A stretch of DNA of 64,000 nt, from the NCBI GenBank assembly GCA_963792265.1, contig CAWBVP010000030.1, forward strand, positions 4,612 to 68,611, read 5' to 3'. The translations under genes and the position numbers were made by a program. Source of the stretch: an uncultured Gemmatimonadales bacterium (GTDB lineage Bacteria; Gemmatimonadota; Gemmatimonadetes; Gemmatimonadales; GWC2-71-9). Shown here piece by piece: positions 5,000 to 32,667 of this stretch (positions are counted from its first letter, which is position 1; each line of letters opens with the position of its first letter). Below the pieces are notes generated by a model that was given only the letters and a program-made list of their open reading frames with translations, ran no database searches and was not told where the DNA came from.

Positions 5000-5003
5000 C
5001 CCA

Positions 5004-6492
5004 TCACTCCTCCTCCGGACGGCCGAACATCAGCTGAATGAACCCCTGGTCCTCCGGCTCGCGATCACGTGCACGTGGTCGCCCGGCTCGAGCGTGGTGG
5101 CCGGCTTGGGCGGCACCAGCCGGTTCTTCCGGACGATCAGCGTCACCGCGGCTCCGTCGGGAAGCGGCAGGTCCTCCAGCGGCACCCCGGCCACCACCAG
5201 CGCTTCATCTATATAGAAGGACATCAGCTCGCCCTGGAGCGGCTGGCGCGACTCGATGGCCAGCACCGCCTGCGGCGCCGGCGGCTCCTTGGCTCTGGAG
5301 CCCGAGCCGCCGGGTCACCCAGGCCACCGTCGCGCCCGGGCACCAGCGCGCTCGCCACCACGATGAAGAACACCAGGTCGAACAGCCGCTCCGCGCCCGG
5401 CGCGCCGGCCAGCACCGGGAAGGTCGCCAGCACGATCGGCACCGCGCCCCGAAGGCCCACCCATCCGATGTAGAGCACTTCCCTCCGGGGATAGCGGAAC
5501 GGCAGGAGACAGAGCGCCACCACCAGCGGCCGGACCACGAACGCGAGCAGCAGCGCGATGGCGAGCCCGACCCCGGCCACATCGAGCAGCCGGGAGGGAT
5601 AGACCAGCAGACCGAGGATGAGGAACATCCCCACCTGGCTGAGCCAGGCCAGCGCGTCGTGCACCCGGAGCAGCCCGGTGTGGTAGGGCAGCGGCCCGTT
5701 GCCCAGCAGCAGCCCGGCGAGATACACCGCGAGGAAGCCGCTGCCGTGGGCCAGCGTCGCCACGCCGAAGGCGAGCAGGCCGAGCGCCAGGGTCATCACC
5801 GGATAGAGCCCGCCGCTGGGGAGGCTGAGCCGGCGAGAGCAGGTGCCGTCCGCCGTATCCCACCGCCGCGCCGAACGCGGCGCCCACCACCAGCTGGAGC
5901 AGCGATCTCCAGCGGGATCCGGAGCCGGCGCGGCCGAGCCCGGGGCCAGCAGGTTCTGCGGTGAGGACGGTGGTGAGGATGACCGCGACCGGGTCGTTGA
6001 TGCCCGACTCCACCTCGAGGGTGACGCCGACCCGCCGCTTGAGCTGGAGCCCGCTGCCGCGGAGCGCCGAGAACACCGCGGCCGCGTCGGTGGAGGACAC
6101 CACCGCGCCGAGCAGGAGCGCCTCGCGCCAGCCCAGCCCCAGGCAGTGGGCGCAGCGCCGCCACCAGCACCGCGGTGCCGGCGACGCCGACCGTCGCCAG
6201 CACGCCGGCCGGCGCCGAGCGCCTTCCGCACCGCGCCCAGCGGGGTGTTGAGCCCGCCGTCGAACAGGATCAGCGCCAGCGCGAGCACGCCGACCCGGAA
6301 GGCGAAGCGGTAGTCGTCGAACGCGATGCGGCCGATCCCCTCGGAGCCGGCCAGCATGCCGACGACGAGGAAGAGCAGCGCGATCGGCAGGCCGGTGCGC
6401 TGGGAGGCCCGGCTGAAGATCACGCTCACGCCCAGCAGCAGCCCGCAGGTGGCGAGGAGCAGGGCGGTGGCTTCGGGCTCGTGGGGAAACAC
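5004..6492 (-). CDS. cvrA: K+/H+ antiporter (NhaP2/CvrA type, CPA1) with C-terminal TrkA-C domain; frameshifted
   Basis: [38 protein letters not shown] and [13 protein letters not shown] motifs across ORFs 5224..6492, 5315..6499 and 5030..5266; ends [16 protein letters not shown]. Confidence 0.85.
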
Positions 6493-6500
6493 GCTGCATC

Positions 6501-6610
6501 GCTATGGGCTATGGGCTATGGGCTTGGATGCGGAAGCAAGACCAGCTCCAAACTATAGTGCTAGCGGGACCAGCGAATAGCCAACCGCGCATAGCGCATA
6601 GCGCATAGCC
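6501..6610. repeat. Inverted pair of heptamer tandem repeats between divergent antiporter genes
   Basis: (GCTATGG)x3 at 6501-6521 facing (GCGCATA)x3 at 6587-6607. Confidence 0.8.
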
Positions 6611-6626
6611 TCCCCATACTTCCCCC

Positions 6627-8244
6627 ATGTCCGCCGAGAGCCTCGTCTCCGCGCTGGCCCTGATCGGCATCGTCATCCTGGTGGCGTCGCTGTTGTCCGG
6701 CCTGGTCGAGCGGACCGGTGTGCCCCAGGTGGCCATCTTCCTCCTGCTCGGCGCGATGCTGGGGCCGGCCGGCCTCAACCTGGTCAACCTCACGCTGCAG
6801 TCGCCCACGCTGCAGTGGATCGCGATCCTGGCGCTGGTGCTGGTGCTCTTCACCGATGCCATCGCCATGGACCTGAGCGAGATCCGGCGGCCCCGCCGGG
6901 TGCTGCTCCTGGTCCTCGGCCCCGCGACCCTGCTCCCCGCCATCCTCATCGCGCTGGCCGCGCACTTCATCCTCGGTCTCGATCCGCTCCCCTCCGCCAT
7001 CCTCGGCGCAGCGCTGGCCTCGACCGACCCGGTCATGCTCCGGAGCCTGGTCCGCCGGTCCACCCTGCCGGCGGGCGTGCGGGCGGCGCTCCGGCTGGAG
7101 GCGGGGATCAACGACGTGATCCTGCTGCCGATCGTGGTCCTGAGCATGCTGCTGCTGAGCCCGCCCCGGCCGGAAACTTCGCGCTGGAGATGAGCCGGCA
7201 CGCCGTGGGACTCTTCGTGCTGGGCCCGCTGCTCGGCGCGCTGATCGGCTACGTCGCCATCACCGTGCTGGAGCAGGTGCGCAAGCGGGTCGGGGTGCGG
7301 CGGGACTACGAGTCGCTCTACGCCCTGGGCTGTCGCCTTCACCGCGTACGCCGCGGCGGAGTCGGTGGGAGGGAGCGGCTTCCTGGCCGCGTTTGCCGCC
7401 GGCGTGGTGATCGCCAGGCTGGACGTGGAGCTGTGCGACTGCTTTCTCGACTACGGCCAGGCCACGGCCGAGATGTTCCTGCTGTTCACCTTCGTCGCGT
7501 TCGGGGCCTGGCTGATCTGGAGTGGCTTCACCGTTGCCGATGGCCGCACGCTGCTGTTTGCGCTGCTGGCGCTGGTGGCGCGCACCGCGGTGCTGCTACC
7601 GGTGCTCGCCCGGGAGGGGATCGACCGGCGAACCCGAAGGATCGTGGCCTGGTCGGGGACCCCGGGGACTCAGCTCGCTGCTCCTGATCCTGCTGCCGGT
7701 GTTTGCCGGCGTGCCGGGGAGCGAGCGGCTCTTCGCCATCACCTGTCTGGTGGTGCTGCTCTCGGTGGCGCTGCACGGCACCGGGATCGCCCTGTTCCTC
7801 CGGGGACGAGGGGACGACCAACGCGCCGGTCCGGGTTACCGGCGGCGACGCGGTGACCCATGAGCCCGATCCCGACGCCAAGGTCCCCGAGAAGATCACC
7901 CTGGAGGAGTTCCAGAAGCTGCGCGACGCGGGCGAGCCCTATGTGCTGGCCGACGTCCGCACCGAGCGGAGCTACCGGGCCGACAATCTGCAAGCGCAGG
8001 GCGCCATCCGGCTCCCGCCCGACGATGCGGTGCGCCGAGCTCGGGAGCTGGGCCTGGAGCATCACGGGACGGTAGTGCTCTACTGTGCGTGAAAGGATGA
8101 AGCCACAAGCGCCCGGGTGGCGCGAGAGCTTCGAGCGGCAGGCTGGCCCAAGGCGCGCGCGCTGGTGGGCGGCTGGGCCGCTGGCAGCAGGAGGGCCTCC
8201 CGGTCGAACCCAGGAGCGCCGAGCCCATAGCCCATAGCGGATAG
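6627..8244 (+). CDS. CPA1 cation:proton antiporter with C-terminal rhodanese domain containing a probable selenocysteine (TGA 8090-8092); frameshifted
   Basis: LVLFTDA, LASTDPV, LEAGINDV, SGFLAAF and GPRGLSS motifs; then VLADVRT...VVLYCA-TGA-KDEATSARVARELRAAGWPKARALVGGW..WQQEGLPVEP. Confidence 0.8.
8099..8132 (+). promoter_or_regulatory. Candidate bacterial SECIS hairpin
   Basis: GAAGC(8099)/GCTTC(8128) lower stem and GCGCC-CGGGT-GGCGC apical stem-loop just 3' of the in-frame TGA. Confidence 0.6.
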
Positions 8245-8270
8245 CTAATAGCCAATAGCGGATAGCGCAG
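8221..8270 (+). repeat. Heptamer tandem repeat (ATAGCnn)
   Basis: cccatag cccatag cggatag ctaatag ccaatag cggatag. Confidence 0.85.
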
Positions 8271-8366
8271 CCCCTGGCACACCCGTTGCCATAATCCCCC
8301 CGCAGTCAGGGCCGTTGCCCAACGCAGCGGCCCGCGGCCCCCCCTAGAACGCCAGAACGACCCAGC

Positions 8367-9506
8367 TTGGGCCCTCAACTGCTCCCGATTATGGAGGCGG
8401 AACTCATGCGCGTACTGCAATTCGCGAAGCGATCTGTCATGACGGTGGCGTTTATCAGCGCCACCCTGGCGGGATGTACCGACAACTCGAGCCCGGATGC
8501 GCCGTTCAATCCGGCCGGCACCAGCGCGGACCTGGACGCGGTGGGATCGAGCTTCTCATCGGAGACCTTCAACAGCTTCTCCGCCCTCAGCATCAAGTTC
8601 GACGCCGCCATCGGCGGGGCGCCCATCATCTCGACGTCCGCCGCAGCTATGGCGATCGGGCGCCGCGGCAGCAGCTCGAACGTGCGGGCCGCCGCGGTGC
8701 AGAGCGCCCAACGCCTGGCGGGGATGATGACCCGGTCGGCGAAGCAGGGTGCCGGGATCTCGATGATGGCGATTCCGTCCAACGTGGCGGGAAAGACCTT
8801 CGAGTACGATCTGGCGACCGGCGCCTACGTCGTGTCGTCCCGTCCGCTGCTGCCGCTCAACAAGGTCCGCTTCATCCTCTATGCGGTCGATCCGGTGACG
8901 CTCGCTCCGGTGGACCCGCTGGTGGAGACCGGCTACGTGGATCTGATCGACCGGAGCGCCGGCACCACTCAGGCGGCTGAGATCGTGGTCGTCTCGGGGA
9001 GCACCACCTACCTCGACTACACCATCACCGCCACCAGCACTGCCTCGAGCGGCCGGGTGACCGTGGTCGGGTACGTGACCGATGGACTGGTCCAGGCCAA
9101 CGTCAATCTCCGCTCGTCCATCACCTTCACCGGTGGCCTCACGCTGAACTACTCGCTCGGGGTGCCCGACCGCGGGGTCGCGATCGACCTCACCCTGACT
9201 GCGACGGACCTGGCCCAGCAGACCGGGACGCTGACGGTGAACCTGACGCTCCGGGGTCCCAACGGCACGGTAGGCATGACCGGGCAGTTCACCAACACGA
9301 CCGGTCTCCTGCACGTGCGGATCAACGGACAGGCCTTTGCCACCGTCACCACGGACGGCACGACCGTCACCTACACTCGAGACGACGGCCAGCCGTTCAG
9401 CAACGACGAGGCGGGGGCGATGACTCGGGTGTTCGAGCTGCAGGCGGGAGCCTTCATCGCGTTCGATCAGATGCTGGCGCCGGTGGGAGCGTTGTTCGCG
9501 ACGTGA
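8367..9506 (+). CDS. Hypothetical lipoprotein (start probably 8406)
   Basis: Intact ORF; GGAGG RBS before ATG 8406; lipobox LAGC; Thr/Gly-rich beta strands. Confidence 0.8.
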   Translation: MGPQLLPIMEAELMRVLQFAKRSVMTVAFISATLAGCTDNSSPDAPFNPAGTSADLDAVGSSFSSETFNSFSALSIKFDAAIGGAPIISTSAAAMAIGRRGSSSNVRAAAVQSAQRLAGMMTRSAKQGAGISMMAIPSNVAGKTFEYDLATGAYVVSSRPLLPLNKVRFILYAVDPVTLAPVDPLVETGYVDLIDRSAGTTQAAEIVVVSGSTTYLDYTITATSTASSGRVTVVGYVTDGLVQANVNLRSSITFTGGLTLNYSLGVPDRGVAIDLTLTATDLAQQTGTLTVNLTLRGPNGTVGMTGQFTNTTGLLHVRINGQAFATVTTDGTTVTYTRDDGQPFSNDEAGAMTRVFELQAGAFIAFDQMLAPVGALFAT

Positions 9507-9547
9507 AGGCGGTAGGCGGTAGGGCGGTAAGCAGATAAGCGGTAAAC

Positions 9548-9580
9548 AGAAGAAGCCCGACGATTTGGCCGGGCTTCTTC
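9548..9580. terminator. Hairpin between convergent genes (likely bidirectional terminator)
   Basis: GAAGAAGCCCG...CGGGCTTCTTC inverted repeat. Confidence 0.65.
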
Positions 9581-9631
9581 ATTTGTAGTCATCGCGAGCA
9601 GGCGCAGCCTGCGTGGCGATCCGTGGATGCC

Positions 9632-10654
<1,023 letters not shown>

Positions 10655-10765
10655 GATCTCTCTACGAAGGTTCTGATGCTGAGATTTCCCCATGGTTCAG
10701 GAGGTGGACGCCATGAGGGTCATGGAATTCATCCCGTCATCGGCGCAGCCAATAGCGGATAGCCG

Positions 10766-11059
10766 ATGAGCGGCGCGCGCAATGCGCGCCCGACATTGCG
10801 AAATATTTCACAAGCGAATAGCTTAGCCGCCGTGACGCCCTCGCAACCCGGTGGAGGAAAGGGCCCTAGCCCCATGCGCTACGCCGGATTGGGCCTCCAA
10901 CTCGCGGTGAGTTTGCTGGTCTTCGTCTGGATCGGACAGTGGGCCGACCGCAAGCTGGGCACCGGAGGGCTGCTCACCATCCTGGCGGCATTAATCGGTT
11001 TCGGGGGCACGATGTTCTCGATCGTTCGCAGTCTGAATCGGGACAACAAGGGCGAATGA
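10766..11059 (+). CDS. AtpZ/AtpI family protein (start possibly GTG 10832)
   Basis: Two TM helices (GLQLAVSLLVFVWIGQWADRKLGT); first gene of the atp cluster. Confidence 0.8.
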   Translation: MSGARNARPTLRNISQANSLAAVTPSQPGGGKGPSPMRYAGLGLQLAVSLLVFVWIGQWADRKLGTGGLLTILAALIGFGGTMFSIVRSLNRDNKGE

Positions 11060-12392: not shown

Positions 12393-12432
12393 GGCGGGGA
12401 AGCGGGGAAGCAGGGAATGGAAAGCAGGTAGA

Positions 12433-13991: not shown

Positions 13992-14355
13992 GCGCGACGC
14001 GGCGCGTCGCGCCGTGTTATGGATGTATGATCATCCCAAGGGCCACCCATGAGGGTGGCCCCGATGTTTTTCGGCCATCATCCCGATCCCAAACGCCCGC
14101 CTGGGGCGGGCCTTGGTTGATTTATTACGCGTGCCGCGTACCCGGCCCTTACGGGCCGGGCTCTTGATTTGGCGCGGTCCTCCGGACCGCGGATACCCGC
14201 CGACCAGACAAGCTCCATTCGAAATGTGTGTACAGAACCCTACCAAACACGGAGCGTCCGCGGTCCGGAGGACCGCGCCAAATCGGGAGGGCCACCCGTG
14301 AGGGTGGCCTTGGCATCCATGCCCAACGGCATCCCATAGGCCCGCGACGCGGGCC
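13992..14355. repeat. Cluster of REP-like palindromes next to a transposase
   Basis: GGCCACCCRTGAGGGTGGCC at 14041 and 14290; perfect 28-bp inverted repeat 14166-14193 / 14257-14284; CCCGGCCCTTACGGGCCGGG at 14141; GGCCCGCGACGCGGGCC at 14339. Confidence 0.85.
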
Positions 14356-14359
14356 GTGG

Positions 14360-14814
14360 TCAATCCAACACGTGCGCGGCGTCGTAGGTGATCCCGTGTC
14401 GTTCCAGCAGCCCCAGAAATTCCCCGGTGAATGCCCGCTCCCGGTGATGCATCTCCTGATTGCGGATGTATTCGCGCAGGTATTCATCATCAAAACCTGT
14501 CACCGTGAATGCCCCGTACCCGTGTTGCCACCGGAAATCACGCCGGTGGGGGATGGTCTCGATGGATCCAGCGGGTAGGTGTTTGCCTTGATGGTGCTCA
14601 CCAGCTCCGCAATGGTCACTGTGCCCGGGGGCTCGAGGTAGAGATGCAGATGATCTCTGACTCCTCCGGCACAGAGCAGCTTGCCCTCCTTCCGGGAGAT
14701 GATGTTGCTGGCGCACGCGAACAGCCGAGGCCGCCACTCGGGGTCCAGCCAGGGCCTCCGGTTCTTGGTGGCCCAGACCAGGTGCAGGCGAAGCGAGAGA
14801 TAGGTGTCTGCCAT
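14360..14814 (-). mobile_element. tnpA: IS200/IS605-family (Y1, HUH) transposase, RAYT-like; frameshifted
   Basis: HLVWATKNRRPWL, DHLHL (HUH), WQHGYGAFTV and YIRNQEMHH across ORFs 14500..14814 and 14360..14737; no tnpB. Confidence 0.88.
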
Positions 14815-14950
14815 GAACCCTTCACCCTAGTCTCTCGATCCAGGTAGTGGGAATCATCACTTCGCGCTGTGGTGCCAAATTCTCCGGGCGGCACCTATGT
14901 TTCTCGCCGCTGGCTTGAACCCGCGCCTCGACTCCTGACTCGAGCCCTTC

Positions 14951-17917
14951 GTGATCGCCGTCGCGCTCCTTGTGGTCCAGCAAGCGGCAGCCGGAACGCC
15001 GAATCCGTACTGGCAGCAGCAGGTGGCCTACCAGATCGAAGCCCGCCTGGACGAGCCGCGCGGGGTGCTGGCCGGCACCGAGCGGATCCACTACACCAAT
15101 CGCTCGCCCGACACCCTCACGACCTTCTCGCTCCATCTCCATCTCAACGCCTTTCGCCCCGGCTCCCGCTGGGCCGATGCCGACTCGGTCGAAGGCCGCC
15201 GCCGCTTCAACGATCTCAAGGACCCCGACTTCGCCTACAACCACGTGCGCGACGTCCGGATCATGGGCACGCCGGTGCGCCCGGTGTATCCCTTCGCCCC
15301 CGACAGCACCATCGTGCGCTTCGACCTCCCCCGCCCGCTGTTGCCGGGCGACTCGATGGCGGTGGACCTGAGCTGGGACGCGCGACCCTCCACCGTGCCC
15401 CGGCGACAGGGACGGGAGGGCCGCCGTTTCGATTTCGCCCAGTGGTATCCCAAGGTGGTGGTGTACGACCGCGACGGGTGGGAAGAGCATCCGCTCTATC
15501 CCGCCGGTGAGTTCTACGGCGAGTTCGCCTCGTTCACCGTCGACCTCGACGTGCCCGAGGACCAGGTGATGGGAGCGACCGGCGTTCCGGTCTGCGGCGA
15601 CCCCGGCTGGGCCCGGGCCAACCGCAACCGGTCACGCCCGGTGGACTACCAGCGGGACTACTACGGGGCGCGCACTCCGTCGGCCGGTGCGTGCGAGCGT
15701 CCCGCCGCCGGCCGGAAGAAGCTCCGCTGGTACGCCGAGGACGTGCACCACTTCGCGCTCTCGCTCAACCCGGCGTACCGCTACGAGGAAGGCCGCTACG
15801 GCGACGTCGCGGTGCGGGTGCTCTACCAGCCGGGAGACGAGGCGAGCTGGGGCGGCGGCGTCGCGGTGGAGCGAACCGAGACCGCGCTCGCCTGGCTCGA
15901 TCGGCTCTTCGGCAAGTTCGCCTGGCCCCAGATCACCAACGTGCACCGGATCGAAGGCGGCGGCACCGAGTTCCCCATGATGATCATGGACGGCTCGGCC
16001 GATCAGGGGCTGATCGTCCACGAGCTGGGCCACAACTATGTCATGGGAATCCTGGCCAACAACGAATGGAAGGAAGGCTGGCTGGACGAGGGGTTCACCA
16101 GCTTTCAGACCAGCTGGTTCTGGGAGGCGCTCGGCAAGGGCGGCGCCTACGAGAACGAGGAGCCGGGCGTCCTGGACCTGGATCTCGACGGCTACTCCGA
16201 GCCGCCGAGTTTACCGGGCGAGGCCTATCGCGACTTCAACTCCTACAACATCGCGATCTACACCCGGGGCGAGCTGTTCTTTCACCAGCTGCGCTACATC
16301 GTGGGCGACGAGACGATGCACCGGATCCTCCAGACCTTCTATCAGCGGTGGAAGCTGAAGCACGTGGACGAGGCCGCCTTTCGAGCGGTGGCGGAGGAGG
16401 TGTCGCATCAGGATCTGTCCACCTTCTTCGCGCAGTGGCTGCATGGGGTGGAGTTGTACGACTACGCGGTGGGGAGGGTGAAGGCGGGCGAGGCGGGGAA
16501 GCGGGGAAGCGGGGCGGTGGATGACTCGAGTGGAAGTGGTGCGGAAAGGGTGAAGGACGGATTCCAGTGGACGTCGCCGTCATAGCCAAGAGCGATACCG
16601 GAGTCGTGCGCGCAGAGGGACTGGCCGAGCGGGAATGGGTGGAGGTGGAGACCCGCAGCAAGCCGAAGCTGGTGATGCTGGACCCTCTGGTCCGAACCCA
16701 CGACTGGAACATGCTCAACAACCGGAAGCGCGTCGGTGGGCTGCTGACCCGGCTGTTCGGTTCGAAGCCAGGAGTTGAAGGCTACTTCCATCCGTACTTC
16801 TCGACCCGCTCCCGGCGCGACCGGCTCACCGCGGGTATGCAGCCCACGGTATGGTACAACGACGCCGGGGGCGTGACGCTCGGCCTCCGAGCCCTGGACG
16901 ATTATCTCGGCCGGTTCGACCAGAATCAGAGCTTGATCAGCGCGAGCACGACATGGGGCACGGACAATGGCGTGAAGGACACCGACTTCTTCTTCCGGGT
17001 GCGCAATCCGGTGTCTCTCCGGGCCCCCAACCTGAGCCAGACCTTCGACGTCTTCAACTTCGAGGGGCGTTACGGCGCCACCGCCAGCTTCAAGTGGTCG
17101 CGGCGGGCTCATCTCAGCTTCGGCCCGACCTCGAGTCGGAGCCTGAGGCTGCAATGGGTGGCTACCGACGACTTCCGCTACCTGGATCCCGGCCTCTACG
17201 ATCCGGTGGGCACGGTCGAGCTGGCTATGGGCAGCGGCGTCGCGACCACCAGCGGGAAGTGGCAGCTCGCGGCGCGGGTCAACACCGGAGGGGGACTGGC
17301 GTACAACCGTAATGGGCTCGCCGCGAGCGGCCGGCCCGATCTGGATCCGTTCTACTTTCGCGGCTCGCTGGAAGCCACCGCGCGCCGGCCGATCGGCCGC
17401 TCACTCGGTCTCGGTGCTCGCCTGTTCGTGGGCGGAGCCGGCGGGACTCACACCGCCGCCAAGCAGCGCCAGTTCTACGTCCAGGGCTCCGATCCCTTAG
17501 AGCAGCTGAACAATCCATTTCTCCGCTCCCGCGGTGCGCTGCTGGTGGGTGAGGACTTCCACTACCAGGCCCCCGGCGGTGCCGGCGTCCGCGGCGTGGA
17601 TTCCCGGGTGTCCACCGGCGCGATAGCCGGCTTCAATCTGGAGCTGGAGCGGGCGCTGCTCGCTCGCGCATCGGCGAAACTGTTCAACCGGGTTACCGTC
17701 GCCGCATTCGGCGATCTCTCGTACGGAGACGACATCCATTTTCTCGGCGATGCCGGCGTCGGCCTTCGCGCGGAGCATCGCATCGGCGACACCCGGTTCA
17801 CCACCCGATTCGATTTCCCGCTTGTACGTCAATCGGCCGGAGCTGGCGCAGGACCGCGCGCCGGGCGACGATAAATTCGCGTTTCGCTGGACCTTCAGCT
17901 TCGAGCCGGAGTTGTGA
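14951..17917 (+). CDS. M1 family zinc aminopeptidase with long C-terminal beta-rich extension; frameshifted
   Basis: YWQQQVAY, AQWYPK, GGGTEFPM and HELGH-x18-E (WLDEG); continues in ORF 16567..17874. Confidence 0.88.
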
Positions 17918-18075
17918 GGCGGGAAGCGGGGAGGCGGGGAAGTACGGGAAGAGGCAGCGGAATAGAGCAAAGGAGTCGGATCTGAAGTCCGATTCTTTGA
18001 ATACTGACTGTCTGCTTCCCTCCTTCCCGCTTCCCGCTTCCCGTCCTTCCCGCTTCCCGCCTACCCGCTTCCCTG
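17917..18075. repeat. Inverted arrays of GGGAAGCG-type repeats around a hairpin spacer
   Basis: gggaagcggggaggcggggaag at 17921 facing cttcccgcttcccgcttccc at 18023; inner hairpin caaaggagtcgga/tccgattctttg. Confidence 0.8.
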
Positions 18076-18090
18076 CCATATTTCCCCCGC

Positions 18091-18667
18091 ATGCTGAAAC
18101 CCTACGACACCAACCGCCGCGAGCTGCTGCGCTCGGCCCTGGGCGACTGGCTCGAGCGGCTGGTTGCGAACACCGAAGATCGCGTCATCGCCCGGCGATA
18201 CTTCCGGCCTCCCGGTGCGCTGCCGGAGATGGGATTTCTCGCGGCCTGCACCCGCTGCGGTGCTTGTGTCGACGTCTGTCCCCCGCATGCGATTCTCAAG
18301 GTGCCGACCGATGGCGGGCTCGCCGCCGGCACGCCATACATCGATCCTCAAGCGCAGCCGTGTATCGCCTGCGCCACCATGCCGTGCGCGGCCGCGTGCC
18401 CCACCGCGGCGCTCACCGTGCCGGCGAACGGATGGAGCGGATATCGCGTCGGCTATGTGGAGCTGGATCCCCAGCGCTGCATCACCTTTCGGGGCACTCC
18501 CTGTCGGCGTGTGTGCCGATGCATGTCCGGTGGGGCCGGCGGCGCTGTCGATCGATGAGGGCGGCCATCCGCTGCTCCGGGCCGAGGGATGTGTGGGCTG
18601 CGGCGTCTGCGCTCAGGTCTGCGTGACGACGCCTTCATCATTCCAGCTCACCTACGCAGGCGGCTGA
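18091..18667 (+). CDS. NapF/MauM-like 4Fe-4S dicluster ferredoxin; frameshifted
   Basis: RPPGA, CTRCGACVDVCP, CIAC...CAAACPT and CVGCGVCAQVC motifs. Confidence 0.85.
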
Positions 18668-19018
18668 GTGCCTCCGGTGCCATACCGGGTGGACAAACCC
18701 TGGGGTTACGAGCTGATCTGGGCCCGCACCGATCGCTATGTGGGCAAGATTCTCCATGTGAAGGCGGGCCACATTCTCAGCCTGCAGTATCACAACTTCA
18801 AGGACGAGACGATGCACGTTCTCTCCGGCGAGCTCACCCTCCGAACCCAGGAAGGTGACCGCCTGGTGGCCCGGCCGTTCAAGGCGGGGGAGACGGTGCA
18901 CATTCCGCCCAAGCTGATTCACCAGATCGAGGCGGTGGTGGACAGCGACGTGCTCGAGGCTTCGACGCCCGAGCTCGACGACCTGGTGCGCCTCCAGGAC
19001 CGATACGGACGAGGTTGA
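18668..19018 (+). CDS. Cupin (mannose-6-phosphate isomerase-like)
   Basis: VDKPWGYE, LSLQYH..KDET, EASTPELDD. Confidence 0.85.
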   Translation: MPPVPYRVDKPWGYELIWARTDRYVGKILHVKAGHILSLQYHNFKDETMHVLSGELTLRTQEGDRLVARPFKAGETVHIPPKLIHQIEAVVDSDVLEASTPELDDLVRLQDRYGRG

Positions 19019-19019
19019 G

Positions 19020-20054
19020 ATGCAAGTGATCATCCCGCTCGCCGGCAAAGGCACCCGGTTGAGGCCGCACACCCACCTGGTGCCCAAGCCATTGCTCAAG
19101 GTGGCCGGCCGCCCGGTCATGGATTGGGTGATGGACCGGCTCCAGGGTCTGGATGTCAGCGAGCTCATCTTCATCACCGGGCATCTCAAGGAGCAGGTGG
19201 AAGCGTTTGCCCGCTCCCGCTATCGGATTCCGTCCCGCTTCATCGAGCAGAAAGTGCAGGACGGCACCGCTGGAGCGATCAACCTGGCTCGGCCTCACGT
19301 GAAGGAGGCGGTGCTGATCATCTTCGTCGACACCGTGTTCGAGGCCGATCTCACGCTGATCAATCGCACCGACGCGGACGGGATCATCTGGGCCAAGGAG
19401 GTGGAGGACTACCAGCGCTTCGGCGTCGTGGTGACCGACGCCAAGGGCTACATGACCCGCATCGTGGAGAAGCCCTCCACGCCCATCTCCAAGCTGGCCA
19501 ACATCGGCCTCTACTACATTCGCGCGGTAGACAGCCTGTGGCAGGGGATCGACCACGTGCTGGCCAACCCGGCCAACAAGGGCGAGTGGTATCTCACCGA
19601 CGCCTTTCAGTGGATGATCGAGCACGGCAAGAAAATTCTCACCGCCGAAGTGGGCGGTTGGTACGACTGCGGCAAGCTCGACACCCTGTTGGAGACCAAC
19701 GAGATTCTGCTTCGCAAGGGCGCGGCCCGAAAGCGGAGCTTTCCTGGCGTCACCATTCACGATCCGGTGTATATCGAGGATGGCGTCACCATCGATCGCA
19801 GCGAGATCGGCCCCAACGTCTCCCTGGAGCAGGGCACCAAGGTCAGCGGGAGCCGGCTGCGCAACACCATCGTCGGTCGAGACTCGAAGTTGAGCCGGGT
19901 GGAGCTGGACGGCTCGCTGCTGGGGAACGGCGTGGTAGTGGACGGTCTCCACGGCAGCGTAACCCTGGGCGATCATTCGGAGGTGACCGCAAAACCCAAC
20001 TCGGGGAAGTCATCCCTCGCAGTGCTCGGGGCGAGTCTGAAGAGCCAGAGCGCG
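19020..20054 (+). CDS. Sugar-phosphate nucleotidyltransferase with left-handed beta-helix tail
   Basis: LAGKGTRLRPHT..PKPL, VEKP, WYDCG; no stop codon before the DUF885 region. Confidence 0.85.
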
Positions 20055-21670
20055 GTGACCTCGGTAGACGATCTCTGCCGGTCGTACCTCGACCTCAAGT
20101 ATCATTTCGACCCGGCCGCGGGCAGCATCGTCGGCCTGGTTGCCGAAGACGCCAGGCTGGGCCGCTTCGATCCCCAGACCATCAGAGAGCACATTTCGGC
20201 ACTGCGTTCGGTAGCCGGCGCGGTGGAGGAGCTGGAGCCCGATACTCTGGCGGCCGAGATCGATCGCACCGCCCTGCTGGGCGAGATCCGCACTGCCATT
20301 TTTCGTCTGGAGCACGAGCAGCCCAATGTCCGCAATCCGGGCTTCTGGCTCGGGCATCTCTTTCAGGGACTCTACGCCCTGCTCGCCCGCACCGAGACCG
20401 ATCCGGCGGAGCGGGCCCCGGCCGTAGCAGCCCGCCTGGCCGATGCCCCGGCGTTTCTGGATTCCGGACGCGCGACCATCAGCGAACCGCCGGCCGTGTT
20501 CGTCGACATGGCCTTGAGCATGCTCGGCGGCGGCGGGGAGCTGATCGCGCAGGTGGTGTCCGTGTTCGGCAGCGCGGCTCCCACCCTGGCCGACGAGCTC
20601 AAGCGGGTGGGACAGAAGGCGCTGGAGTCGTTGGTCAGCTTTGGGGCCGCGCTCAAGGACGAGATCGAGCCCAATCCCGATCCCAACGCCTTCGCCATCG
20701 GCGAGGAGCAGTTCAGCCGCCGGCTGCATCACGAGCACGCGTTGATGGCGGGCCCGCCGGAGCTGTGGCGCTACGGGCTTCACCTGCAGGAGGAGGTGAC
20801 TCAGGAGATCGTAGCGCTTGCGGCGCGGATCGATCCCCGTCCCTGGCGCGAGCTGGTCGACCATCTCCGGGATCAGACGCCCGAGCCCGATGAGCTGCTG
20901 GGGGTCTACCGCTCGGAGCTCGATCGCGCGTGTGATTTCGTGCGGCAGCACAATCTGGTGCGAGTGCCTGACGGCAATGTCGAGGTGGTTCCGACGCCGG
21001 CCTTCCTGGCATCGCTGGTGCCCTTCGCCGCCTACGAGCCCCCGCCGATCTTCCTGCAGCAGCGCACCGGACGCTTCTACGTCACCCGGCCGACCCTTCG
21101 CTGCCGCCGGGAGCCTTCTCCCAGCAGCGCCGGGGCCATTGCCGCCACGCCATCCCGGTGATGGCGGCGCACGAGGTCTATCCCGGCCACCATCTCCAGC
21201 TGCTGACGAGCGAAGGGCTCGACTCCGAGGTGCGCCGCCACGTCTGGAGCCCGGTGATGGTGGAAGGCTGGGCGCTGTACTCCGAGCAGCTGATGGGCGA
21301 GGCCGGCTATTACGAGAGCGACGAGGTCCGCCTGTTTCAGCTGGTCAATTTGCTCTGGCGCGCCATCCGGGTGGTGTTGGACGTCGGCCTGCACACTCGG
21401 GGCATGACCCCGGCGGAGGCGGTGGATTATCTGGTGGAGCATCTGCCGATCGAGCGGTTGAGCGCTGAGGCGGAGGTCCGCCGGTATTGCGCGTGGCCCA
21501 CCTACCAGCTGTGCTATGCGGTGGGACGGCGCGAGCTGTTGCGGCTCAGGGAGGCATACCAGGAGCGAGAGGCGGCTTCCTTCGACCCCCGGCGATTCCA
21601 TGACGAGCTGATGAGCTACGGCGGAATACCGGTGTCGCTAGCGCGCTGGGGCATGGATCTCGTGGAGTGA
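20055..21670 (+). CDS. DUF885 family protein; frameshifted, in frame with the upstream gene
   Basis: HEVYPGHHLQ, EGWALYSE, RAIRVVLDVGLH, PTYQLCYAVG. Confidence 0.85.
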
Positions 21671-32628: not shown

Positions 32629-32667
32629 AGGCAAGAGAAGCGGGGCGGCGGGGCAGCGGGGCAGCGG

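What the first reader, a model, noticed from the sequence alone, without database searches (positions are those of the whole stretch)
6627..8244. Probable selenoprotein: CPA1 antiporter carrying a C-x-U rhodanese domain
Seen: the ORF track ends at ...VVLYCA-TGA(8090), but the same frame continues as KDEATSARVARELRAAGWPKARALVGGW and, after one indel at ~8180, WQQEGLPVEP, completing a rhodanese fold. A stem-loop with a G-containing apical loop (8099-8132) starts 6 nt after the TGA. Known: related rhodanese domains have YCxCPxExxxARVA, so the TGA sits at the second Cys, and bacterial SECIS elements lie just 3' of the UGA. Errors here are mostly indels, so a clean Cys-to-TGA with a hairpin is unlikely to be noise. 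Inference: an ion antiporter with a Sec redox/sulfur-transfer switch, routinely annotated as truncated. The fusion rests on a frameshift near 7810; a separate GTG start at 7853 is possible. No sel genes are in this window.
Basis: partly seen in the sequence, partly recalled or inferred. Interest (0 to 1): 0.9.

Follow-up and report, generated by a model that had tools for sequence, protein, structure and literature searches.

The report
Selenocysteine-containing cation/proton antiporter with rhodanese domain
This is a real gene for an ion antiporter whose tail domain carries the rare amino acid selenocysteine at an in-frame TGA; public annotation cuts it short there, so the antiporter-bound form of a known selenoprotein domain has been overlooked.

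Summary
Window 6627-8244 (+) encodes one roughly 535-residue protein: a CPA1 (NhaP-type) cation/proton antiporter, a variable linker and a C-terminal rhodanese domain. The domain has the motif LYCA-TGA-KDEATSARVA (TGA at 8090-8092).

The TGA is not noise:
- Every related gene examined keeps it, in 22 of 23 published genomes of the genus and in 80 of 80 further loci.
- The sequence after it evolves as coding sequence.
- A hairpin at 8098-8133 meets the published bacterial SECIS model and has one covarying pair.
- More distant homologues carry Cys at that column.
- The genome has tRNA-Sec, selA, selB and selD.

Neighbouring genes show the same kind of error, so these are most likely assembly errors.

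The domain type is already known as NCBIfam NF041203 "rhodanese_LYCAU", called "rhodanese form 3, CxU" in a 2026 review. This domain scores below that model's cut-off. The fusion to an antiporter was not found in the literature I searched.

Public proteins of this gene stop at LYCA (about 485 aa, "cation:proton antiporter"). Function is inferred: most likely a Sec/Cys redox or ligand sensor that controls the antiporter. It is a new variant of a known kind, of moderate to high interest.

The parts
6627..7166 (+). Antiporter gene, piece 1 (start ATG 6627; residues 1-180 of the intact orthologue), frame 3
   Evidence: tblastn of the intact G008 protein: 90% identity. PF00999, 71.8 bits.
7163..7333 (+). 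Antiporter piece 2 (residues 179-235), frame 2; follows a 1-base deletion at about 7160
   Evidence: tblastn: 96% identity. Indel placed.
7335..7667 (+). Antiporter piece 3 (residues 236-346), frame 3; follows a 1-base insertion at 7333. Holds the invariant DVELCDCF motif at 7422-7445.
   Evidence: tblastn: 91% identity. Motif invariant in alignment A2 and present in 119 of 119 database proteins.
7657..7812 (+). Antiporter piece 4 (residues 343-394, last membrane helices), frame 1; follows a 1-base insertion at 7655
   Evidence: tblastn: 96% identity. Indel placed.
7805..8182 (+). Linker and rhodanese domain up to GGW (residues 392-516), frame 2; follows a 1-base insertion at 7802
   Evidence: tblastn: 90% identity. 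PF00581, E 2.5e-8. NF041203, 72.6 bits.
8090..8092 (+). Selenocysteine codon TGA (motif LYCA-U-KDEATS)
   Evidence: TGA at the same column in all orthologues examined. Cys at this column in 57 of 150 more distant representatives.
8098..8133 (+). Bacterial SECIS-type hairpin: lower stem 8098-8103/8128-8133, upper stem 8109-8113/8119-8123, apical loop CGGGU 8114-8118
   Evidence: Upper stem paired in 81 of 81 sequences. One pair reads G-C 69, A-U 11, G-U 1. Synonymous sites are suppressed here. The hairpin meets the four criteria of the published model.
8182..8244 (+). End of the rhodanese domain (WQQEGLPVEP...) and stop codon at 8242-8244, frame 1; follows a 1-base deletion at about 8181
   Evidence: Translation. 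Indel against G008 and G024 and against contigs of related strains.
5224..6499 (-). Divergent neighbour: a second CPA1 antiporter with a TrkA_C tail. It is also broken by 1-base indels in the window.
   Evidence: Intact G008 copy: PF00999 at 155.7 bits plus PF02080 at 38.3 bits. Head-to-head arrangement in 52 of 63 loci with enough upstream sequence. Indels listed.
6501..6609 (.). Shared promoter region with two short heptamer arrays in opposite orientation (GCTATGG x3.4 at 6501-6524; GCGCATA x3.3 at 6587-6609)
   Evidence: Tandem Repeats Finder. Genome-wide count.
8222..8267 (+). Heptamer array (ATAGCNN, about 6 units) that overlaps the stop codon and the 3' flank

Best explanation
Window 6627-8244 is one gene for a selenoprotein. 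Its parts are a CPA1 (NhaP-type) monovalent cation/proton antiporter, a flexible Ala/Pro-rich linker and a cytoplasmic C-terminal rhodanese domain. In that domain UGA 8090-8092 is decoded as selenocysteine by SelB, directed by the hairpin at 8098-8133.

The five frameshifts in the window's copy are most likely consensus errors of the assembly, not decay of the gene.

How it works is inferred, not shown. The rhodanese domain sits where other CPA antiporters carry a regulatory domain, and it presents a Cys-x-Sec pair between a beta strand and the start of a helix. I take it to be a sensor. On this reading, oxidation, persulfidation or alkylation of the selenol, or binding of a soft metal to it, changes the domain and so switches cation/proton exchange on or off. 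The invariant Cys-Asp-Cys motif on the cytoplasmic face of the membrane domain may take part.

I put the identity as a selenoprotein gene at about 0.93 and the regulatory mechanism at about 0.45.
For: Conserved TGA:
- 25 of 25 strong matches in 23 of 24 genomes of the genus have exactly one TGA. Read through, the frame is about 530-570 aa and spans both domains. Without the unpublished genome G003 this is 22 of 23 genomes.
- 42 of 42 matches at E <= 1e-15 in a draw of 401 genomes of the phylum have one TGA.
- 80 of 80 loci kept from 357 confirmed in genome contigs have TGA at the codon.

Coding sequence after the TGA:
- Variation by codon position is 0.081 / 0.072 / 0.246 downstream and 0.104 / 0.077 / 0.375 upstream.
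- The frame runs on for 41-57 codons.
- 31 of 80 orthologues use TGA as their true stop.

Cys/Sec pair. Of the best 150 representatives:
- 59 end right before the Sec column;
- 57 have C-x-C there;
- 34 have something else.

SECIS:
- The upper stem is paired in 81 of 81 sequences.
- One pair reads G-C 69, A-U 11, G-U 1.
- In codons +1 to +15, 4 of 9 columns use a single codon, against 12 of 192 elsewhere.
- The 5-nt loop CGGGU, the 5-bp upper stem, the 21 nt from UGA to the loop and an energy of -15.6 kcal/mol meet the model quoted in the review PMC13188914.

Sec machinery is present. selA is found in 174 of 200 genomes of the family.

Domains:
- PF00999 at 149.3 bits and PF00581 at 39.5 bits in the intact orthologue.
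- Foldseek's best matches are PaNhaP, MjNhaP1, SOS1, SLC9C1 and KefC.
- The TD, ESxxND and GPRG stretches align with PaNhaP.

Errors not specific to this gene:
- The same kind of 1-base indel lies in the neighbouring genes at 5293-6216 and 9690-10489.
- Contigs of related strains lack the window's indels.

For the regulatory reading:
- The divergent paralogue carries TrkA_C at the same place.
- The domain model (pLDDT 93.8) puts C-A-U between strand 70-74 and helix 78-92.
- DVELCDCF is present in 119 of 119 database proteins of the Sec type and in the Cys-type fusions long enough to show it. It is absent from the TrkA_C paralogue.
Against: - No reads of the window's own sample were available. 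The best run held 0.23 of the sampled words, so real frameshifts in this strain are not excluded.
- There is no expression or protein evidence of any kind.
- The hairpin is no more stable than shuffled sequence (z -0.20).
- Only one of 11 pairs covaries. That change also alters two amino acids (A to T and A to V), so protein-level coupling could explain part of it.
- The lower stem is broken in some sequences (93.8% of cells paired).
- The domain scores 72.6 bits in the window and 83.8-87.6 bits in the intact orthologue against NF041203, below its cut-off of 115.
- One partial public protein (P0002) has Leu at the Sec column, and one (P0254) has Trp.
- Which of Cys and Sec sits at the classical catalytic position is unresolved. 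A gapless profile alignment to 6mxv puts Sec there. Gapped alignments to 3tp9 and YnjE put the Cys there.
- The closest solved structure, Alr3790, has no Cys there at all.
- Nothing here tests regulation; a catalytic role fits equally well.
Confidence: 0.85

Rival explanations
1. The rhodanese domain is a working enzyme rather than a sensor. On this reading it is a sulfur or selenium transferase (persulfide or selenopersulfide carrier) tethered to the membrane, and the antiporter merely anchors it or supplies a local pH or ion environment.
For: - Rhodanese domains are classically sulfurtransferases.
- Other Sec-rhodaneses are catalogued as rhodanese-related sulfurtransferases (review table).
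- Both Cys and Sec are invariant.
- The same C-x-C-P domain is also fused to DedA/VTT membrane proteins and stands alone. It is therefore a portable module, not one tied to antiporters.
Against: - The loop after Sec is acidic (K-D-E-A-T). It lacks the Arg and Gly seen in 6mxv (CGGGFRS) and 3tp9 (CRTGGRS); that these are typical of thiosulfate-binding rhodaneses is recalled.
- The model shows only three residues between strand and helix instead of the usual six-residue cradle.
- The closest structures are Alr3790, which lacks the Cys, and the first YnjE domain, taken here to be inactive.
- The DVELCDCF motif is found with the rhodanese fusion in every case checked. This points to cross-talk with the membrane domain.
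Confidence: 0.25
2. The Cys-x-Sec pair, together with the membrane Cys-Asp-Cys motif, forms a soft-metal site (for Cu, Hg, Cd or Zn, for example). The protein then senses or handles metal ions rather than redox state.
For: - There are two invariant C-x-C-type motifs, with acidic residues beside both (DVELCDCF and CAUKDE).
- The review says that most transporter-linked selenoproteins are implicated in metal or metalloid resistance.
Against: - No metal-resistance genes were seen beside it. The neighbours are a TrkA_C antiporter and a protein of no known family.
- CPA1 ion-site residues for monovalent cations are kept.
- No structural evidence shows that the two motifs meet. The full-length model has mean pLDDT 65 and gives no reliable domain placement.
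Confidence: 0.12
3. In this particular genome the gene is a true pseudogene: the five frameshifts are real.
For: There are five uncompensated 1-base indels in 1.6 kb, and no reads of the source sample were available to check them.
Against: - The same kind of indel, mostly an extra base, is found in the adjacent genes on both sides when compared with two independent relatives.
- The pieces remain 90-96% identical to the intact orthologue, with no stops other than those caused by the shifts.
- The genome is in 34 contigs, which I take to indicate a long-read assembly (the inference is mine).
Confidence: 0.07
4. The TGA is a plain stop codon. The protein ends at LYCA, and what follows is not translated.
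For: All public gene calls end there. A hairpin after a stop codon could be a terminator-like element.
Against: - The downstream sequence varies mainly at third codon positions and keeps a rhodanese fold.
- Cys homologues read straight through the position.
- A stop there would cut the domain in the middle of its core.
- The hairpin has no run of T after it.
Confidence: 0.02

Closest known systems
[quoted passage not shown]
   Same: The same LYCAU motif, with Sec two residues after an invariant Cys in a rhodanese domain. It is the best NCBIfam match (E 2.2e-20 for the window, 4.9e-25 for the intact orthologue). Stand-alone forms with one TGA occur in the same bacterial family (open frames of 112-190 aa).
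   Different: It scores below the model's cut-off (72.6-87.6 bits against 115). It is fused to a 13-helix antiporter instead of standing alone as a protein of about 126 aa. It is only 32-47% identical to the stand-alone forms in the same family.
NhaP-type CPA1 Na+(K+)/H+ antiporters (PaNhaP 4cz8, MjNhaP1 4czb)
   Same: The membrane domain has the same fold (Foldseek E 1.3e-10). The profile alignment keeps the TD, ESxxND and GPRG stretches.
   Different: Sequence identity is about 19-21%. There is an extra C-terminal Sec-rhodanese domain. An invariant DVELCDCF motif lies where PaNhaP has a longer insert.
CPA antiporters with a C-terminal regulatory domain: the neighbouring NhaP2-like paralogue with TrkA_C, KefC with its KTN domain, and SOS1 and SLC9C1 with nucleotide-binding domains
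   Same: The layout is the same: a transporter core followed by a cytoplasmic domain on a linker. That KefC is gated by glutathione adducts is recalled, not tested here.
   Different: The tail is a rhodanese domain with Cys-x-Sec, not a nucleotide- or ligand-binding RCK or CNBD domain. No regulation has been shown for it.
Cys-type antiporter-rhodanese fusions and DedA-rhodanese fusions from metagenomes (P0189, P0229, P0232; P0162, P0226)
   Same: The same domain with C-x-C-P in place of C-x-U, fused to PF00999. One source names P0189 'NhaP-type Na+/H+ or K+/H+ antiporter/rhodanese-related sulfurtransferase'. The antiporter forms also keep the ...CDCF... motif.
   Different: They have Cys instead of Sec. 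All are fragments from short contigs of unnamed organisms, and none has been studied.
Alr3790 rhodanese-like domain of Anabaena (2kl3, 3ilm, 3k9r, 3hix)
   Same: It is the closest solved structure (Foldseek E 4.5e-8, TM 0.73). It shares the D-E-x-T-S stretch after the active-site position.
   Different: It has G-A-(gap)-G where this protein has C-A-U, so it carries no redox-active residue there.

Membership tests
Bacterial selenoprotein gene (Sec-UGA with bSECIS) | In-frame TGA kept at the same codon in orthologues from independent assemblies | tested here: met
   25 of 25 strong matches in the genus; 42 of 42 in the phylum draw; 80 of 80 loci.
Bacterial selenoprotein gene (Sec-UGA with bSECIS) | Protein-coding conservation continues after the TGA in the same frame | tested here: met
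   Variation by codon position is 0.081/0.072/0.246 downstream, like upstream. Residues after U are invariant in alignment A3. The domain folds as a whole at pLDDT 93.8.
Bacterial selenoprotein gene (Sec-UGA with bSECIS) | Homologues with Cys aligned to the TGA (Cys/Sec pair) | tested here: met
   57 of the best 150 representatives have C-x-C at these columns, and 59 end just before the column.
Bacterial selenoprotein gene (Sec-UGA with bSECIS) | Hairpin that meets the bSECIS model: loop 3-9 nt, upper stem 4-16 bp, G in the first two loop positions, 16-37 nt from UGA to the loop, energy <= -7.5 kcal/mol (as quoted in PMC13188914) | tested here: met
   Loop CGGGU, 5-bp stem, 21 nt spacing, -15.6 to -16.1 kcal/mol. 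The upper stem is paired in 81 of 81 sequences, with one covarying pair. bSECISearch itself was not run.
Bacterial selenoprotein gene (Sec-UGA with bSECIS) | Genome encodes tRNA-Sec, SelA, SelB and SelD | tested here: met
   all are above the curated cut-offs. SelB matches in two pieces (C16:36015-37085 and C16:37558-37845).
Bacterial selenoprotein gene (Sec-UGA with bSECIS) | Selenium shown in the protein | not testable with these tools
   This needs 75Se labelling or mass spectrometry.
NCBIfam NF041203 rhodanese_LYCAU | Score at or above the curated cut-off (115 bits) | tested here: not met
   72.6 bits for the window; 83.8 and 87.6 bits for the intact G008 orthologue.
NCBIfam NF041203 rhodanese_LYCAU | LYCAU motif | tested here: met
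   VVLYCA-TGA in the window. The pattern is [LVI]YC[ATM]U in the 80 loci.
Pfam PF00581 Rhodanese | Score above the gathering cut-off (22.2 bits) | tested here: met
   34.7 bits for the window; 39.5 bits for the orthologue.
Catalytic rhodanese (sulfurtransferase) | Catalytic Cys at the start of a six-residue active-site loop before the helix | tested here: inconclusive
   The gapless alignment to 6mxv puts Sec at the catalytic Cys. Gapped alignments to 3tp9 and YnjE put C484 there. The model has only C-A-U between strand and helix.
CPA1 antiporter (Pfam PF00999) | Full-length match above the cut-off and an NhaP-like fold | tested here: met
   149.3 bits over profile positions 3-374 of 375. Foldseek matches PaNhaP at E 1.3e-10.
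CPA1 antiporter (Pfam PF00999) | Ion-site residues (TD and ND motifs; the names and roles are recalled) | tested here: met
   ASTDP aligns with GATDP and ESGxND with ESIFND in the profile alignment to 4cza and 4cz8. These residues are invariant in alignment A2.
NCBIfam NF003716 potassium/proton antiporter (NhaP2/CvrA type) | Score at or above the cut-off (355 bits) | tested here: not met
   150.7 bits. The cation carried is therefore not assigned.

The most novel reading that the evidence does not exclude
This would be the first ion antiporter gated by selenocysteine. The Cys-x-Sec pair of the tethered rhodanese domain reacts with oxidants, electrophiles or reactive sulfur species. It then forms a selenenylsulfide, either within the pair or with the invariant cytoplasmic Cys-Asp-Cys of the membrane domain. 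That event switches K+(Na+)/H+ exchange, giving soil Gemmatimonadales a fast selenium-based link between redox stress and cytoplasmic pH and ion balance. Here Sec would act as an allosteric sensor rather than a catalytic residue.
Probability: 0.25. Interest if true: 0.8.

Novelty: new variant of a known kind. Interest (0 to 1): 0.62.

Why it matters
Selenoproteins are nearly all soluble redox enzymes. The 2026 review I read lists only a handful linked to transport: a mercuric transport protein, a P-type ATPase, YeeE/YedE, the Sao ABC parts and a Cu/Zn efflux protein. It does not use the words antiporter or exchanger.

This gene adds a secondary-active cation/proton antiporter to that list. It is not a rarity: 357 loci were confirmed in one-genome-per-species contigs, and nearly all of the 80 kept come from soil Gemmatimonadales assemblies.

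Every public protein of it that I saw is cut at the Sec codon, so the rhodanese domain never reaches databases. Gene callers and family models could be corrected.

The protein also offers a direct test of whether Sec can serve as a regulatory sensor on a transporter. The test would be transport assays with U-to-C and C-to-S variants.

Tried and rejected
- **Hairpin stability.** Single-sequence folding of the hairpin gave no signal above shuffles (z -0.20), so I do not use stability as evidence.
- **Sequencing runs.** No run held more than 0.23 of the sampled words, and no RNA holder was listed. The window's own reads could therefore not be checked, and nothing can be said about expression. Contigs of related strains were laid instead. 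In that output 120 rows of differences were not shown, so it does not by itself prove that positions 8090-8092 are unchanged in those strains.
- **Heptamer arrays as a sulfur-related operator.** The genome has 14 ATAGCNN arrays, in 10 places. I scanned open frames at 8 of the 9 other places; none was sent for C28:3129. Three lie near sulfur- or methionine-related genes: a tandem rhodanese, a Cys/Met PLP enzyme and an aspartokinase. The others lie near TIM, Fpg, an isochorismatase, a luciferase-like oxygenase, an outer-membrane protein and similar genes. I rejected the idea as unsupported.
- **Co-occurrence with the Sec machinery.** selA is in 174 of 200 genomes of the family, so it cannot discriminate. 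Two genomes with the fused gene and no selA match (G061 and G174) are 72% and 81% complete.
- **Full-length structure model.** Its mean pLDDT is only 65. I did not use it for domain placement.
- **Literature.** Searches and look-ups found no antiporter selenoprotein. One search ("LYCAU" anywhere) returned only unrelated words. Search 85 and look-up 86 (Alr3790) gave only a gene name in a transcriptome paper. Supplements were closed, and selenoprotein lists in supplements of the survey papers may hold this gene.
- **Papers I could not read.** Haft and Tolstoy 2025 is not held. Zhang and Gladyshev 2005 (Bioinformatics) was not read; it is cited only through the review.
- **Other tools.** bSECISearch is not on hand, so I applied its published criteria by hand.
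Full report
**What is in the window.** The stretch 6627-8244 (+) holds pieces of one gene in alternating frames. The first 188 residues and a later piece match Pfam Na_H_Exchanger (PF00999). The frame from 7853 matches Rhodanese (PF00581, E 2.5e-8) when the TGA at 8090-8092 is read through. The motif is VVLYCA-TGA-KDEATSARVARELRAAGWPKARALVGGW. After a 1-base gap at about 8181 the reading WQQEGLPVEP... runs to a stop at 8242-8244.

**The fusion and the frameshifts.** In 19 loci from other genomes of the same genus, reading the TGA through gives a single open frame. It is about 530-570 aa where the contig holds the whole gene, and it contains both domains. The G008 orthologue (534 aa, U486) matches PF00999 over its whole profile at 149.3 bits and PF00581 at 39.5 bits.

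Comparison of the window with G008 and G024 shows 1-base indels at these positions:
- about 7160 (-1)
- 7333 (+1)
- 7655 (+1)
- 7802 (+1)
- about 8181 (-1)

There is also an in-frame 3-base difference at 7840-7842. tblastn of the intact protein finds five pieces in frames 3, 2, 3, 1 and 2, at 90-96% identity.

Contigs of related strains from four public runs lack the same indels. The adjacent genes on both sides carry further isolated 1-base indels against both relatives, mostly an extra base in the window. I therefore read the frameshifts as consensus errors of this assembly, not as decay of this gene. Reads of the source sample were not available, so this is inference.

**Is the TGA selenocysteine?** Six lines of evidence agree.

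1. *Conservation of the codon.*
   - 23 of 24 other genomes of the genus have the gene, and each of the 25 strong matches has exactly one TGA. One of these genomes, G003, is unpublished; without it the count is 22 of 23.
   - In 200 other genomes of the family, 42 have a match at E <= 1e-8. The 24 matches of 98 bits or more outside G000 (48-78% identity) all hold a TGA: 20 have one TGA and no other stop, two have two TGA, and two have one TGA plus another stop.
   - In 400 other genomes of the phylum, 41 match at E <= 1e-15. By family this is 35 of 166 in the window's own family, 6 of 93 in a second family of the order, and 0 of 141 in ten further families. All 42 matches, the window's genome included, have one TGA.
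   - Of 357 loci confirmed in genome contigs, the 80 kept all have TGA at the codon.
2. *Coding sequence beyond the codon.* Variation among the 80 loci is 0.081 / 0.072 / 0.246 by codon position in the 31 codons after the TGA. It is 0.104 / 0.077 / 0.375 in the 24 codons before it. The frame continues for 41-57 codons. TGA is also the true stop in 31 of 80 orthologues, so TGA is not a general sense codon here.
3. *Cys/Sec pair.* A profile of the domain, searched against 1.84 billion representatives, found 4915 proteins at E <= 0.001. Of the best 150, 59 end right before the Sec column. Another 57 have C-x-C there, 38 of them C-x-C-P, and 34 have something else.
4. *A SECIS-type hairpin at 8098-8133.* It has a lower stem of 6 bp and an upper stem of 5 bp (GCGCC/GGCGC) around the loop CGGGU.
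   - In 81 sequences the upper stem is paired in all. One of its pairs reads G-C 69, A-U 11, G-U 1.
   - The lower stem is paired in 93.8% of cells.
   - In codons +1 to +15, 4 of 9 amino-acid-invariant columns use a single codon. Elsewhere it is 12 of 192 (mean codon entropy 0.40 against 0.96 bits). The sequences are related, so this is descriptive only.
   - The hairpin meets the four criteria of the bacterial SECIS model as quoted in the review PMC13188914, from passages of its section 5 and the legend of its Fig. 2.
   - Its energy is not better than that of shuffled sequence (z -0.20).
5. *Sec machinery.* All parts are present:
   - tRNA-Sec: 69.1 bits against a cut-off of 47; ARAGORN gives tRNA-SeC with anticodon TCA.
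   - selA: 521.7 bits.
   - selB: 272.9 bits, with its C-terminal part matched separately nearby.
   - selD: 361.6 bits, itself with one in-frame TGA.
   - selA is in 174 of 200 genomes of the family.
6. *Family match.* NCBIfam gives as best match NF041203 "rhodanese_LYCAU, rhodanese-related (seleno)protein".

**What is known already.** The review PMC13188914 was read as passages of its table and of sections 5-7. [quoted passage not shown] So a Cys-x-Sec rhodanese is a catalogued selenoprotein family.

The present domain scores 72.6 bits in the window and 83.8-87.6 bits in the intact orthologue, against a cut-off of 115. It is fused to an antiporter. Stand-alone forms with one TGA, 32-47% identical, occur in the same bacterial family.

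The review does not contain the words antiporter, exchanger or Gemmatimonad. Searches found no paper that describes an antiporter selenoprotein. Supplements were closed, and Haft and Tolstoy 2025 is not held, so prior mention in a list cannot be excluded.

Public gene calls of this gene end at LYCA. Among 375 proteins found, 119 of the 120 listed cover only the part of the queried region before the Sec codon (54-61% of it). Most of them are 483-490 aa, the rest shorter fragments, and they are named sodium/hydrogen or cation:proton antiporter where a name is given, with PF00999 alone. One partial protein (P0002) reads through with Leu at the position.

**The membrane domain.** Foldseek places it with PaNhaP (E 1.3e-10), MjNhaP1, SOS1, SLC9C1, NHE1/3 and KefC. 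The profile alignment to PaNhaP keeps ASTDP/GATDP, ESGxND/ESIFND and GPRG. These residues are invariant in 15 orthologues. That they are the ion-site motifs of CPA1 is recalled, not tested. The best NCBIfam antiporter model (K+/H+, NF003716) is far below its cut-off (150.7 bits against 355), so I do not name the cation.

**The rhodanese domain.** With 48 sequences the domain folds at pLDDT 93.8. Strand 70-74 (TVVLY) is followed by C75-A76-U77 and then by helix 78-92. In full-length numbering these are C484, A485 and U486.

The nearest solved structures are Alr3790 of Anabaena and 6mxv. Alr3790 has G-A-gap-G at the C-A-U place but shares D-E-x-T-S after it.

A gapless profile alignment to 6mxv sets Sec against the Cys of its CGGGFRS loop. 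Gapped alignments to 3tp9 and to the second YnjE domain set C484 there instead. Which of the two holds the classical catalytic position is therefore open.

A Cys-x-Sec pair between a strand and a helix start is the usual setting of redox-active pairs. That statement rests on recalled general knowledge.

**Context.**
- The divergent neighbour (window 5224-6499, minus strand) is a second CPA1 antiporter, with a TrkA_C tail. The head-to-head pair is kept in 52 of 63 loci with at least 400 nt of upstream sequence.
- The membrane domain of the Sec protein has an invariant DVELCDCF (window 7422-7445) at the start of a helix that I place on the cytoplasmic side. I counted helices from the C-terminus in the model; this is inference.
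- The motif is in 119 of 119 database proteins of the Sec type. It is also in the Cys-type fusions long enough to show it (P0189, P0229, P0232). It is absent from the TrkA_C paralogue.
- Cys-type antiporter-rhodanese fusions and DedA/VTT-rhodanese fusions exist in metagenomes.

**Mechanism.** It is shown that this is a gene for a CPA1 antiporter with a C-terminal Cys-x-Sec rhodanese domain, with all the sequence marks of Sec decoding.

It is inferred that the tail is a sensor that controls transport. The arguments are:
- the tail takes the place of the regulatory domains of related antiporters;
- it hangs on a variable linker;
- its loop is acidic and short, unlike the anion-binding cradle of sulfurtransferases;
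- a second invariant Cys pair on the membrane domain is found with it in every fusion checked.

The rival readings, a tethered sulfur or selenium transferase or a soft-metal site, are not excluded.

**Verdict.** There are five frameshifts rather than two. The Cys-x-Sec rhodanese is a known selenoprotein family, so this is a new variant (an antiporter fusion, below the family cut-off) rather than a new kind. It is widespread in soil Gemmatimonadales, and every public gene call I saw cuts it short at the Sec codon.

Noticed in passing
window 6501-6524, 6587-6609, 8222-8267; also G000 C7:555852-556391, C32:8366-8477 and others: Short arrays of a 7-base unit (ATAGCNN, 3-6 units) flank the gene, two of them as an inverted pair in the shared promoter region. 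The whole 3.78 Mb genome has only 14 such arrays; about 0.001 are expected from base composition. Related strains have like arrays at the same places. Genes beside the other arrays are mixed, so no regulon emerges. Their role is unexplained.
   Followed up: partly
window 7422-7445 (Cys codons 7434-7436 and 7440-7442): An invariant DVELCDCF motif lies in the membrane domain. It is present in every rhodanese-fused antiporter long enough to show it, whether Sec type or Cys type. It is absent from the TrkA_C paralogue next door. It may be a partner of the Cys-x-Sec pair.
   Followed up: partly
window 5224-6499 (-): A second CPA1 antiporter, with a TrkA_C tail, is transcribed divergently from the Sec antiporter. 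It is also broken by 1-base indels in the window. The pairing is kept in 52 of 63 loci.
   Followed up: yes
window 5000-10800 and 14300-18000: Many isolated 1-base indels, mostly an extra base, appear against two independent relatives. Other stretches (8400-9500, 18049-20769) have almost none. The consensus quality of this assembly is uneven, and any frameshifted gene in it should be read with that in mind.
   Followed up: partly
G000 C7:367554-368477 (locus L018): The genome's selD match has one in-frame TGA, so SelD is probably a selenoprotein here too.
   Followed up: no
G000 C16:36015-37085 and C16:37558-37845 (locus L010): selB matches in two separate pieces. This may be another assembly frameshift.
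   Followed up: no
proteins P0162, P0226 (metagenomes): The same C-x-C-P rhodanese domain is fused to DedA/VTT membrane proteins. The domain is a recurring cytoplasmic tail of membrane proteins.
   Followed up: partly
proteins P0002 and P0254: Two public fragments read through the Sec column, one with Leu (LYCALMDEQT) and one with Trp (LYCAWKNEAT). These may be real loss of Sec, a sequence error, or a gene call made under another genetic code.
   Followed up: no
locus L045 (contig labelled Chloroflexota, 2580 bases); proteins P0050 and P0091 (labelled Chloroflexota and Nonomuraea): Orthologues (80% identical for L045, 71-78% for P0050 and P0091) sit on short contigs binned to other phyla. This is most likely binning error rather than transfer.
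   Followed up: no
window 12394-12417, 16484-16514, 18014-18073, 32639-32667: Further short intergenic tandem repeats of 7-8 bases, such as GCGGGGAA, GCTTCCC x8 and AGCGGGGC. I did not examine them.
   Followed up: no
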